Positions 36,719 to 38,307 of a DNA stretch of 64,000 nucleotides are shown piece after piece (position 1 is the stretch's first letter; each line of letters starts with the position of its first letter). This DNA is from the human T2T-CHM13v2.0 reference genome, Homo sapiens, in assembly GCF_009914755.1 (NCBI RefSeq), contig NC_060938.1; one strand, given 5' to 3'. The position numbers and the translations under genes were made by a program. The notes under the pieces are model-generated. The model saw only the letters and a list, made by a program, of their open reading frames with translations, made no database searches and was not told where the DNA came from.

Positions 36719-37261
36719 ACCACTACTAACTCTCCTGACCCTCTGCCTTATCCTCATACCCTTAAAGATGTGACTTAAAAGAGAAAAAATTATGTTGTTA
36801 ATTTCATCAACTAGGGCAAAGGGGAAAAATGTTCATTTCGATGCAGGAAGTTAATGGGAGATGGGAGGAAGCTACGGTTACAATTCCCATAATACATTAA
36901 TGTATATTTAATATACCACCTTGATTTGTGGCCTCAAGTTAAATAACTACATATGTTTGCAGCATAATTCTTTTCATAATTGTGTAGCCTCAATGGGATA
37001 ACATTTGTATTAGTTTCCATAATCGAAAATGTCAAATGCCTGTTTCCACCTTCCAAGTATTTTGGTTTTAGGTAGCAAAGACAATTCTTTCAATGCGTAT
37101 CTGTTCTCATTAAGTTCTGATTGCTTTATAAAGAAATAAAGTCTTTTCCCATTGTTCTGCTCTGTGGAAGTCACCTTCAGAGTAAGGGTGGGGGTGACTG
37201 TCCTTGCCAATTTTTAAGTAACTGCCTTGCAAGGGTGATTCCCTACAGAGTTATTTTCTGC
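36719..37261 (+). repeat. Inverted-repeat arm A (non-repeat-looking source sequence, 543 bp)
   Basis: reverse complement of 37681-38224; ~8 substitutions plus a small junction indel by manual alignment. Confidence 0.97.
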
Positions 37262-37474
37262 ATAGTTTCCCTCTGGGTACAGAATGTGGGAAAGTAGATG
37301 CAACGCATTTTAGAGTAGTCATTTGCTCTAATAATTAGCATTATAGTACAGTGTATGGGCTGGCTTCCTGTTGAGGTCTAGATTTCTACATATAATGTAG
37401 GTTTTTCTATTCTGTCCTATATTAATTTCATTGGAGTTACTCTTTATCAGAGCAAACATCCGTAACATTTAGTC

Positions 37475-38307
37475 TTTTTTTTTTTTTTTTGGAGACAGAG
37501 TCTTGCTCTGTCGCCCAGGCTGGAGTACAGTGGCGTGATCTTGGCTCACTGCAACCTCTTCCTCCAAGGTTCAAGTGATTCTCCTGCCTCAGCCTCCCAA
37601 GTAGCTGGGATTACCGGTGTGTGCCACCACACCTGGCTAATTTTTGTATTTTTAGTAGACATGGGGTTTCACCATGTTGAGCAGAGCAATAACTCTGTAG
37701 GGAATCACCCTTGCAAGCCAGTTACTTAAAAATTGGCAAGGACAGTCACCCCCACTATTACTCTGAAGGTGACTTCCACAGAGCAGAACAATGGGAAAAG
37801 ACTTTATTTCTTTATAAAGCAATCAGAACTTAATGAGAACAGATACGCATTGAAAGAATTGTCTTTGCTACCTAAAACGAAAATACTTGGAAGGTGGAAA
37901 CAGGCATTTGACATTTTCGATTATGGAAACTAATACAAATGTTATCCCATTGAGGCTACACAATTATGAAAAGAATTATGCTGCAAACATATGTAGTTAT
38001 TTAACTTGAGGCCACAAATCAAGGTGGTATATTAAATATACATTAATGTATTACGGGAATTGTAACCGTAGCTTCCTCCCAACTCCCATTAACTTCCTGC
38101 ATCAAAATGAACATTTTTCCCCTTTGCCCTAGTTGATGAAATTAACAACATAATTTTTTCTCTTTTAAGTCACATCTTTAAGGATATGAGGATAAGGCAG
38201 AGGGTCAGGAGAGTTAGTAGTGGTCTTGAACTCCTGACCTCAGGTGGTCCGCCTACCTTGGCCTCCCAAAGTGCTAGGATTACAGGCGTGAGCCACTGTG
38301 CCCAGCC
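37475..38307 (-). mobile_element. AluSx-type SINE split in two (37475-37679 and 38221-38307) by a 544-bp insert
   Basis: ...gtttcaccatgttg | insert | tggtcttgaactcctgacctcagg... rejoin the Alu consensus; degenerate TSD atccgtaacattta/atttgtaatattta. Confidence 0.93.
37681..38224 (-). repeat. Inverted-repeat arm A' (copy of 36719-37261 inside the Alu)
   Basis: near-identical mirrored ORFs 37010-37210(-) and 37733-37933(+) show the duplication. Confidence 0.97.

What the first reader, a model, noticed from the sequence alone, without database searches (positions are those of the whole stretch)
36719..38307. 544-bp inverted copy of neighbouring DNA inserted mid-Alu, forming a ~98% identical inverted repeat with a 419-bp spacer
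Seen: 37681-38224 is the reverse complement of 36719-37261 (~8 substitutions plus a junction indel by hand). It lands inside an AluSx whose halves rejoin the consensus with only a few bases lost. The right junction shares 4-bp microhomology (tggt) and the left has imperfect homology around cag. There is no poly-A or new TSD, so it is not retrotransposition. Established: this geometry matches template switching (FoSTeS/MMBIR) or templated end-joining. Inference: divergence of the order of human-ape divergence suggests a hominid-era event unless gene conversion homogenised the arms. It creates a ~540-bp near-perfect non-Alu dsRNA stem if transcribed (ADAR/Dicer/MDA5 substrate). It is also a cassette whose spacer could flip by recombination between the arms.
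Basis: partly seen in the sequence, partly recalled or inferred. Interest (0 to 1): 0.85.

Follow-up and report, generated by a model that had tools for sequence, protein, structure and literature searches.

The report
Inverted copy of neighbouring DNA inside Alu
About 540 bases of unique intron DNA in the human NRXN3 gene were copied backwards into an old Alu element 420 bases away, a clear but ordinary scar of DNA copying that jumped templates, leaving a long hairpin-forming repeat.

Summary
Window 36719-37255 and 37688-38224 are reverse complements over 537 nt with 8 differences. With one indel the match reaches 37261/37681. The whole assembly holds only these two copies.

- **Which arm is the copy:** The right arm splits an old antisense Alu. 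The two Alu pieces are colinear on 14 of 15 reference Alus, with 5-16 nt missing.
- **Junctions:** One junction shares 4 nt (TGGT). The other is scarred. There is no poly-A and no target-site duplication.
- **Age:** The Alu is about ten times more diverged than the arms are from each other, so the copy came long after the Alu.

Best reading: a DNA-level, microhomology-primed templated inverted insertion. It matches the "3-2-1-4 / 1-4-3-2" template-switch geometry, or equally a fold-back repair that rejoined the other end.

It is a known kind of mutation at an unusual size. Its age (ape orthologues), any human polymorphism and any RNA editing could not be tested here.

A 264-kb survey around it found a second compound event of about 540 nt and two smaller local duplications. 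This hints at a recurrent process in this intron. No function is shown.

The parts
36719..37261 (+). Source arm: unique NRXN3 intron DNA in its native context, the template of the copy
   Evidence: alignment. (2 copies genome-wide). It is continuous with unique flanks, while the other arm interrupts an Alu.
37262..37680 (.). 419-nt spacer: about 213 nt of unique DNA plus the 3' part of the host Alu. It is in the ancestral orientation.
   Evidence: The Alu 3' part in the spacer is colinear with, and in the same orientation as, the Alu 5' part beyond the insert.
37475..37679 (-). Host Alu, 3' part. Its A-tail reads as a T run at 37475-37490.
   Evidence: aligns to 14 of 15 reference Alus of the window, ending at 37672-37682; 84.0% mean identity to 13 other Alus.
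37680..37687 (.). Scarred junction between the Alu and the inverted copy: one unassigned A, then GCAGA shared with the source, then GC where the source has A
   Evidence: junction display. Similarity to the lost Alu bases (GCCAG) is imperfect.
37681..38224 (-). Inserted inverted copy of 36719-37261 (544 nt)
   Evidence: Both ends abut Alu sequence.
38221..38224 (.). 4-nt microhomology TGGT shared by the end of the copy and the resuming Alu
   Evidence: 10 of 15 reference alignments of the Alu 5' part run to 38221, 4 nt into the arm..
38225..38308 (-). Host Alu, 5' part
   Evidence: 85.9% mean identity to 13 other Alus.

Best explanation
Long after an Alu had inserted antisense in this NRXN3 intron, a growing DNA 3' end left its template inside the Alu. 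That end may have been at a stalled fork or at a resected break. It re-primed through a few bases of imperfect homology about 420 nt upstream, on the strand of opposite polarity. That strand could be the sister or other fork template, or the end's own folded-back strand. It copied 544 nt (37261 back to 36719), then returned to the Alu through the 4-nt TGGT, about 7 nt beyond where it had left.

The result is one templated inverted insertion with a small deletion. In the four-point template-switch model this is type 3-2-1-4 or its mirror 1-4-3-2. In cancer-genome terms it is a local one-template 'bridge'.

Shown: the two-copy inverted repeat, the split Alu, the lost bases, the microhomology, the lack of retrotransposition marks, and the age gap between Alu and arms. 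Inferred: the enzymology (replicative switch versus break repair), the date, and all consequences.

The likely consequence is a neutral fossil. In the sense pre-mRNA it would fold into a near-perfect stem of about 540 bp, a plausible nuclear ADAR substrate.
For: - The arms are 529 of 537 identical and inverted. There are only 2 copies in 3.1 Gb, found by a search able to detect 71-77% relatives.
- The right arm is bounded on both sides by halves of one Alu, colinear on 14 of 15 references, with 5-16 nt missing (7 nt in 4 references, 5 nt in 3).
- TGGT overlaps the arm and the Alu.
- There is no A or T run at the insert ends, and Alu bases are lost rather than target bases duplicated.
- The Alu is 84-86% identical to 13 other Alus, the same as those Alus are to each other (84.0%). 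It keeps 5 CpGs in 291 nt. The arms differ by 1.5%.
- The geometry matches the published class that makes an inverted repeat, 31% of high-confidence human-chimpanzee events (passages of PMC5453318).
- Spacer plus 2-8 nt of inverted microhomology is the fold-back signature (passages of PMC3907307).
- A second, compound event 62 kb away strings a 114-nt direct copy and a 541-nt inverted copy of nearby unique DNA into one insertion. That requires serial template switches.
Against: - No outgroup or second haplotype was available, so the empty site is inferred from the Alu, not seen.
- The first junction shows only imperfect homology and carries extra changes.
- Differences are not significantly concentrated near that junction, as error-prone copying might predict: 3 of 8 events lie within 80 nt, binomial P = 0.10; KS P = 0.67.
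- 544 nt is far longer than catalogued short template switches (median 12, maximum 128; passages of PMC7954356).
- The 419-nt spacer is shorter than any sequenced fold-back spacer (766-70,466 bp).
- Sequence alone cannot separate replication from break repair, or a DNA template from a nascent-RNA template.
Confidence: 0.8

Rival explanations
1. RNA-level origin. One version: L1 reverse transcriptase copying the Alu RNA jumped to the local NRXN3 pre-mRNA and back during the Alu's own insertion. Another version: a broken DNA end was extended on the nascent sense transcript. Read in Alu sense, the insert is the sense intron sequence, so the orientation fits both versions.
For: The orientation is compatible, from reading: Alu 5' part, then sense intron 36719-37261, then Alu 3' part and tail. 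The source lies in the same transcription unit (hub annotation).
Against: The insertion-time version needs arms as old as the Alu. The Alu shows about 16% pairwise divergence from other Alus, while the arms differ by 1.5%. It therefore also needs complete recent homogenisation of both arms. A jump out of the Alu RNA and back within about 7 nt is unparsimonious. For the later RNA-templated version nothing in the sequence argues for RNA over DNA.
Confidence: 0.07
2. The duplication is much older than 1.5% divergence suggests, and the arms have been kept alike by arm-to-arm gene conversion. This changes the date, not the mechanism.
For: Arms of 537 nt at 98.5% identity, 419 nt apart, are plausible conversion partners (general knowledge of palindrome arm conversion, recalled). 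The longest perfect runs are 174 and 121 nt.
Against: The 8 differences are spread over the whole arm with no diverged block left over (KS P = 0.67). Two of them are CpG/TpG-type differences, one on each arm, as expected from simple independent decay.
Confidence: 0.1
3. Assembly artefact (fold-back chimera), or two independent copies of a known repeat.
For: None found. Inverted duplicates are known to disturb nanopore base calling (title and abstract of PMC7229812 in the listing).
Against: There are eight arm-specific differences, a 419-nt unique spacer, and exact embedding in one Alu whose sequence resumes. Only two copies exist genome-wide. By the hub's mask list, neither arm holds a masked stretch of 100 or more, apart from 37681-37686 at the edge of the Alu mask (the list omits shorter stretches).
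Confidence: 0.02

Closest known systems
Short-range template-switch mutations, four-point model type 3-2-1-4 / 1-4-3-2 (Loytynoja and Goldman 2017, PMC5453318; Walker et al. 2021, PMC7954356)
   Same: A reverse-complement copy of nearby sequence replaces a few bases. The switch-point order is 3(36719)-2(37261)-1(37679)-4. An inverted repeat is created and the spacer is not inverted.
   Different: The length is 544 nt, against a median of 12 and a maximum of 128 in the great-ape gold-standard set. The source is 419 nt away rather than within tens of bases.
Fold-back inverted duplications (Hermetz et al. 2014, PMC3907307)
   Same: A single-copy spacer lies between the direct and inverted copies, with short inverted homology at the spacer/inversion junction.
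   Different: [quoted passage not shown] Here synthesis stopped after 544 nt and rejoined the other side, so the chromosome is otherwise intact.
FoSTeS/MMBIR and 'bridges of templated insertions' in cancer genomes (PCAWG, PMC7025897)
   Same: A copied segment is inserted with return to the host chromosome, leaving a small gap. This is the definition of a 'bridge' in the passages. There is microhomology at a junction. The neighbouring compound event shows serial switching.
   Different: This event is fixed in a reference haplotype rather than a disease or somatic allele. It has a single, local template and is sub-kilobase.
Snap-back / synthesis-dependent microhomology-mediated end joining (Yu and McVey 2010, PMC2943611; Kent et al. 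2016, PMC4912351; titles and abstracts only)
   Same: A 3' end primes on its own strand through microhomology, and the new DNA anneals to the other end through microhomology.
   Different: From recall, the templated tracts reported there are typically a few to tens of nucleotides, not 544.
Long, highly paired intramolecular dsRNAs of the human genome (dsRNAscan preprint, PMC11838218)
   Same: It exceeds 300 bp and 96% pairing, the class counted as 2,018 genome-wide (section 10). The predicted stem runs end to end.
   Different: Most of that class are inverted LINE pairs and 88% are intergenic. This one is unique-sequence and intronic. NRXN3 does not occur in that paper's main text. Its tables were not seen, because bioRxiv supplements are closed.

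Membership tests
Template-switch mutation, type 3-2-1-4 / 1-4-3-2 | The inserted fragment is the reverse complement of nearby reference sequence | tested here: met
   529 of 537 identical in reverse complement, source 419 nt away
Template-switch mutation, type 3-2-1-4 / 1-4-3-2 | Switch-point order with point 4 after point 1; spacer not inverted | tested here: met
   The Alu halves are colinear and in the same orientation on 14 of 15 references, with 5-16 nt skipped. Definition.
Template-switch mutation, type 3-2-1-4 / 1-4-3-2 | Ancestral (pre-event) sequence observed in a related genome | not testable with these tools
   No primate genomes are held. The own-genome search states that it has no relatives.
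FoSTeS/MMBIR | Microhomology at breakpoint junctions | tested here: inconclusive
   There are 4 nt (TGGT) at one junction. The other has only imperfect GCAG/GCCAG similarity plus extra bases.
FoSTeS/MMBIR | Serial switches or complexity | tested here: not met
   The finding has a single template. The neighbouring event at L016 does have two templates.
Fold-back inverted duplication | Single-copy spacer between direct and inverted copies | tested here: met
   419-nt spacer. This is below the published range of 766-70,466 bp.
Fold-back inverted duplication | [quoted passage not shown] | tested here: not met
   The Alu and the intron continue normally beyond 38224.
L1-mediated retrotransposition / processed insertion | Poly-A tail and target-site duplication | tested here: not met
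   There is no A or T run at either insert end, and Alu bases are lost rather than duplicated.
Interspersed repeat or DNA transposon with terminal inverted repeats | Multiple dispersed copies | tested here: not met
   2 of 2 genome matches are the two arms. Positive control: 40 scored dispersed matches for another query.
Invertible segment between inverted repeats (NAHR inversion polymorphism) | Both orientations of the spacer exist among haplotypes | not testable with these tools
   Only one haplotype is held, and there the spacer is in the ancestral orientation. In the passages seen of PMC3961182 the candidate repeats were under 40 kb, highly identical repeats were defined as 1 kb or more at 97% or more, and one likely breakpoint was a 782-bp stretch of 99.9% identity.
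Long dsRNA / ADAR substrate | Over 300 bp and over 96% paired within one transcript | tested here: met
   The minimum-free-energy fold pairs the arms end to end, -1074.9 kcal/mol. Both arms lie in one NRXN3 intron (hub annotation).
Long dsRNA / ADAR substrate | A-to-I editing observed | not testable with these tools
   No RNA data were available. There are no Rfam families in 35500-39500.

The most novel reading that the evidence does not exclude
The giant introns of NRXN3 may be a hotspot for serial template switching that repeatedly writes local copies of unique DNA 0.4-1.5 kb from their source. NRXN3 is a long neural gene, and its mouse orthologue is named among recurrent-break-cluster genes (passages of PMC9352722). 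The 264 kb examined hold two inverted duplications of about 540 nt at 97% identity or better. The genome-wide count of long, highly paired repeats predicts about 0.17. There are also a 108-nt inverted and a 198-nt direct local duplication, at 1.5-5.6% divergence. On this reading the process steadily creates lineage-specific long intronic double-stranded RNAs in a synaptic gene, and published short-range template-switch catalogues miss its long tail.
Probability: 0.2. Interest if true: 0.55.

Novelty: new member of a known kind. Interest (0 to 1): 0.35.

Why it matters
The host Alu acts as a built-in ruler. It shows which arm is the copy, where the strand left and returned, and that the event came long after the Alu. 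That makes this an unusually clean natural example of a half-kilobase templated inverted insertion. Its size falls between catalogued short template switches (128 nt or less) and clinical fold-back or FoSTeS rearrangements (kilobases to megabases).

It also places a near-perfect hairpin of about 540 bp in the pre-mRNA of a brain-expressed gene. Together with the neighbouring events, it gives a testable lead on whether very long genes accumulate such scars. No function or phenotype is implied by anything found here.

Tried and rejected
- **Rfam scan of 35500-39500:** 0 families at gathering score, so no known hairpin RNA gene.
- **Error clustering next to the scarred junction:** not significant.
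- **Host-Alu target-site duplication:** the best flank match is an 11-nt motif not adjacent to the Alu ends (shuffle P = 0.02, chosen after the fact). By eye only a weak 6-of-7 match adjoins the ends, so this was not used as evidence.
- **Staggered-break inversion model** (duplications flanking an inverted segment): rejected because the spacer is not inverted.
- **Fold-back primed on the upstream inverted Alu:** the 38-nt, 92% complementary pair 36274-36311 / 37641-37678 ends next to the break. Priming there would have copied the upstream Alu, not 37261-36719, so this is rejected as the priming site.
- **Extra short templated patch at the junction:** the 8-mer CAGAGCAA of the junction recurs at 37448-37455. 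Its reverse complement also lies in the Alu, so it is too common to interpret.
- **Literature on this locus:** 0 papers hold both 'NRXN3' and 'inverted duplication'. Eight hold 'NRXN3' and 'inverted repeat', none about this locus by title or abstract.
- **A recalled 2004 PNAS paper on short paired duplications:** could not be retrieved, so it is not used.

Full report
**1. The observation**

The repeat finder reports arms 36719-37255 and 37688-38224: 537 nt, 99% complementary, 432 nt apart. My alignment finds 529 of 537 positions identical in the ungapped core. One extra base (37687) and a 6-nt block with one mismatch follow, carrying the match to 37261/37681.

The 8 core differences are 4 transitions and 4 transversions.
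- One is an adjacent GG/TA pair.
- Two are CpG/TpG-type differences, one on each arm.
- Perfect runs between differences are 40, 79, 21, 27, 174, 121, 37 and 30 nt.

In the 64-kb window this is the only inverted pair of 200 nt or more above 90%. The other five pairs are 83-90%. A search of the whole 3.1-Gb assembly with the left arm returns exactly the two arms. The same method returned 40 scored dispersed matches at 71-77% identity for an unrelated query. So the arms are not members of a detectable repeat family.

**2. Which arm is the copy**

I read the sequence on either side of the right arm in Alu sense and aligned each side separately to 15 other Alus of the window.
- On 14 of 15 the two pieces are colinear, on the same strand.
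- The reference bases skipped number 5-16: 7 nt in four references, 5 in three, 8 and 9 in two each, and 12, 13 and 16 once each.
- One reference (39889-40253) gave no consistent alignment.

So 37475-37679 and 38225-38308 are one antisense Alu, split by the right arm, with about 7 nt lost. Ten of the 15 alignments of the Alu 5' part run to 38221. This means TGGT (38221-38224) belongs equally to the Alu and to the copy.

At the other junction the Alu stops at 37679. An unassigned A follows, then GCAGA shared with the source, then GC where the source has A. The lost Alu bases (GCCAG...) resemble GCAG only imperfectly.

Neither insert end has an A or T run, and bases are lost rather than duplicated. 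Retrotransposition and cut-and-paste transposition are therefore excluded. The Alu 3' part in the spacer keeps its orientation relative to the 5' part, so the spacer has not been inverted in this haplotype.

**3. Relative age**

The split Alu is 84.0% (3' part) and 85.9% (5' part) identical on average to 13 other Alus. Those Alus are 84.0% identical to each other. The split Alu retains 5 CpGs in 291 nt. The arms differ by 1.3-1.5%, with a Poisson 95% interval of 0.5-2.9%.

The copy is therefore roughly an order of magnitude younger than the Alu, unless the arms have been homogenised. Human-chimpanzee divergence is about 1.2% (recalled, not from a call). On that figure the event is of about that age within a several-fold uncertainty. 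No primate genome is held here, so this remains inference.

**4. Mechanism**

The anatomy is that of a single templated inverted insertion. [quoted passage not shown] They make up 31% of high-confidence human-chimpanzee events (passages of PMC5453318).

Here the points are 3 = 36719, 2 = 37261, 1 = 37679, and 4 = about 7 nt further on in the ancestral Alu. Because point 2 precedes point 1, the template may have been either the opposite strand or the nascent or resected strand folded back on itself.

The second option is the fold-back architecture described for large inverted duplications: a single-copy spacer and 2-8 nt of inverted microhomology (passages of PMC3907307). The difference is that synthesis here stopped after 544 nt and the end rejoined its partner. 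In the vocabulary of the pan-cancer structural-variant study this is a one-template 'bridge', which leaves a gap on the host (passages of PMC7025897).

I commit to a DNA-level, microhomology-primed switch (confidence 0.8). I cannot separate a fork-based route from a break-repair route. An RNA template is geometrically possible but has no positive support. That template would be the nascent sense transcript, or an L1 reverse-transcriptase jump during Alu insertion. The insertion-time version conflicts with the age gap.

**5. What argues against, or limits, this reading**

- The pre-event allele is inferred, not observed.
- One junction is scarred rather than cleanly microhomologous.
- A test for error-prone synthesis near that junction was negative: 3 of 8 events within 80 nt, P = 0.10; KS P = 0.67.
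- The copied tract is four times longer than the longest event in the great-ape gold-standard set (median 12, maximum 128; passages of PMC7954356).
- The spacer is shorter than any sequenced fold-back spacer.

**6. Consequences**

Folded as RNA, 36722-38221 pairs arm to arm along its whole length, at -1074.9 kcal/mol. Both arms lie in one intron of NRXN3, on the sense strand (hub annotation). The pre-mRNA should therefore contain this stem.

A genome-wide survey counts only 2,018 predicted duplexes over 300 bp and over 96% paired. Most are between LINEs and 88% are intergenic. It notes that intronic ones are removed by splicing (section 10 of preprint PMC11838218). Nuclear ADAR editing is therefore plausible. 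Cytoplasmic MDA5 sensing is unlikely without intron retention. NRXN3 is not mentioned in that paper's main text, and its tables could not be seen.

No Rfam family matches. Recombination between the arms could invert the spacer, but nothing here shows that it does.

For DNA stability I saw only an abstract. It states that distance and divergence between inverted repeats reduce their ability to cause rearrangements, except in long single-stranded DNA (abstract of PMC10164571).

**7. Beyond the finding**

To judge rarity I fetched 200 kb flanking the window. I then searched the contiguous 264 kb against itself.

Eight local pairs passed the thresholds of 60 nt or more, 93% or more, and a spacer of 10 kb or less. 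Three belong to a dispersed family of about 541 nt, with 6-8 copies in the 264 kb. The other five have only two copies in the 264 kb. Each is also two-copy in the whole genome.

- **(a)** The finding itself.
- **(b)** 62 kb upstream, a compound insertion (two of the five pairs):
  - L016:4558-5095 and 6630-7170 are inverted, 525 of 538 identical plus a 3-nt indel, with a 1,534-nt spacer.
  - L016:5373-5486 and 6514-6627 are direct, 110 of 114 identical.
  - The direct copy directly abuts the inverted copy, which implies two successive template switches.
  - Its 17 differences are 14 transitions and 3 transversions.
- **(c)** L004:7798-7905 and 8299-8406: inverted, 108 nt, 94.4%, spacer 393 nt. 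The match runs 7-8 nt into the 5' end of an Alu, so this event too post-dates an Alu.
- **(d)** L014:8826-9023 and 9454-9651: direct, 198 nt, 97.5%, spacer 430 nt.

From the published count, 2,018 x 264 kb / 3.1 Gb gives about 0.17 long, highly paired repeats expected here, and two are present. Allowing that the first was selected, the chance of at least one more is about 0.16 for all such repeats. It is lower for genic or non-LINE ones.

This suggests, but does not establish, a local excess. Mouse Nrxn3 is named among long neural genes with recurrent replication-stress break clusters (passages of PMC9352722). That is context, not evidence for the germline. The different divergences (1.5, 2.6, 2.5 and 5.6%) point to separate events over a long time.

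**8. Verdict**

It is a new, well-resolved member of a known class, not a new kind of thing. No function is indicated. I found no paper on this locus: 0 papers, and 8 papers, none on it by title or abstract. Interest is 0.35. What remains open is its age, its variation among people, and whether such scars really cluster in this gene.

Noticed in passing
L016:4558-7170 (G000:C14:73506558-73509170; about 62 kb upstream of the finding, outside the window): A second unique-sequence inverted duplication: a 541-nt alignment, 97% identical, with a 1,534-nt spacer. Its inverted copy directly abuts a 114-nt direct copy of another nearby segment. Together they form a two-template compound insertion of about 657 nt. 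Each segment has only 2 copies in the genome.
   Followed up: yes
L004:7798-7905 and 8299-8406 (C14:73389798-73390406): A 108-nt inverted local duplication, 94.4% identical, spacer 393 nt (mostly one Alu), two copies genome-wide. The match extends 7-8 nt into the Alu's 5' end, so the copying post-dates that Alu.
   Followed up: partly
L014:8826-9023 and 9454-9651 (C14:73490826-73491651): A 198-nt direct, non-tandem local duplication, 97.5% identical, spacer 430 nt, two copies genome-wide. Three of the four local events have spacers of about 390-430 nt.
   Followed up: partly
window 36452-36573: A 122-nt (AAAG)n tract (31 copies, 94% matches) grown from the A-tail of the upstream Alu. It lies 146 nt from the point where the templated copy ends. 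It is a polypurine tract of the kind that can stall forks. No link to the event is shown.
   Followed up: no
window 36172-36466 and 37475-37679 / 38225-38308: Before the event the source segment lay between two inverted Alus about 1 kb apart (78-92% complementary blocks). One 38-nt, 92% block ends at 37678, next to the break.
   Followed up: partly
window 37683-37690 and 37448-37455: The 8-mer CAGAGCAA of the scarred junction recurs in direct orientation in the spacer. A 7-mer version lies at 38322-38328, and its reverse complement is in the Alu. This is probably chance.
   Followed up: no
window 58095-58635, 62959-63359; L019 and other loci: A dispersed repeat family of about 541 nt, with 7-8 copies in the 264 kb at 86-95% identity. 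It forms the other long inverted and direct pairs near the window's end. The family was not identified.
   Followed up: no
L016:7245-7425: An ancient interspersed repeat (539 first-look candidates genome-wide, 71-77% identity) beginning about 75 nt beyond the second event's right junction. I used it only as a sensitivity control.
   Followed up: no
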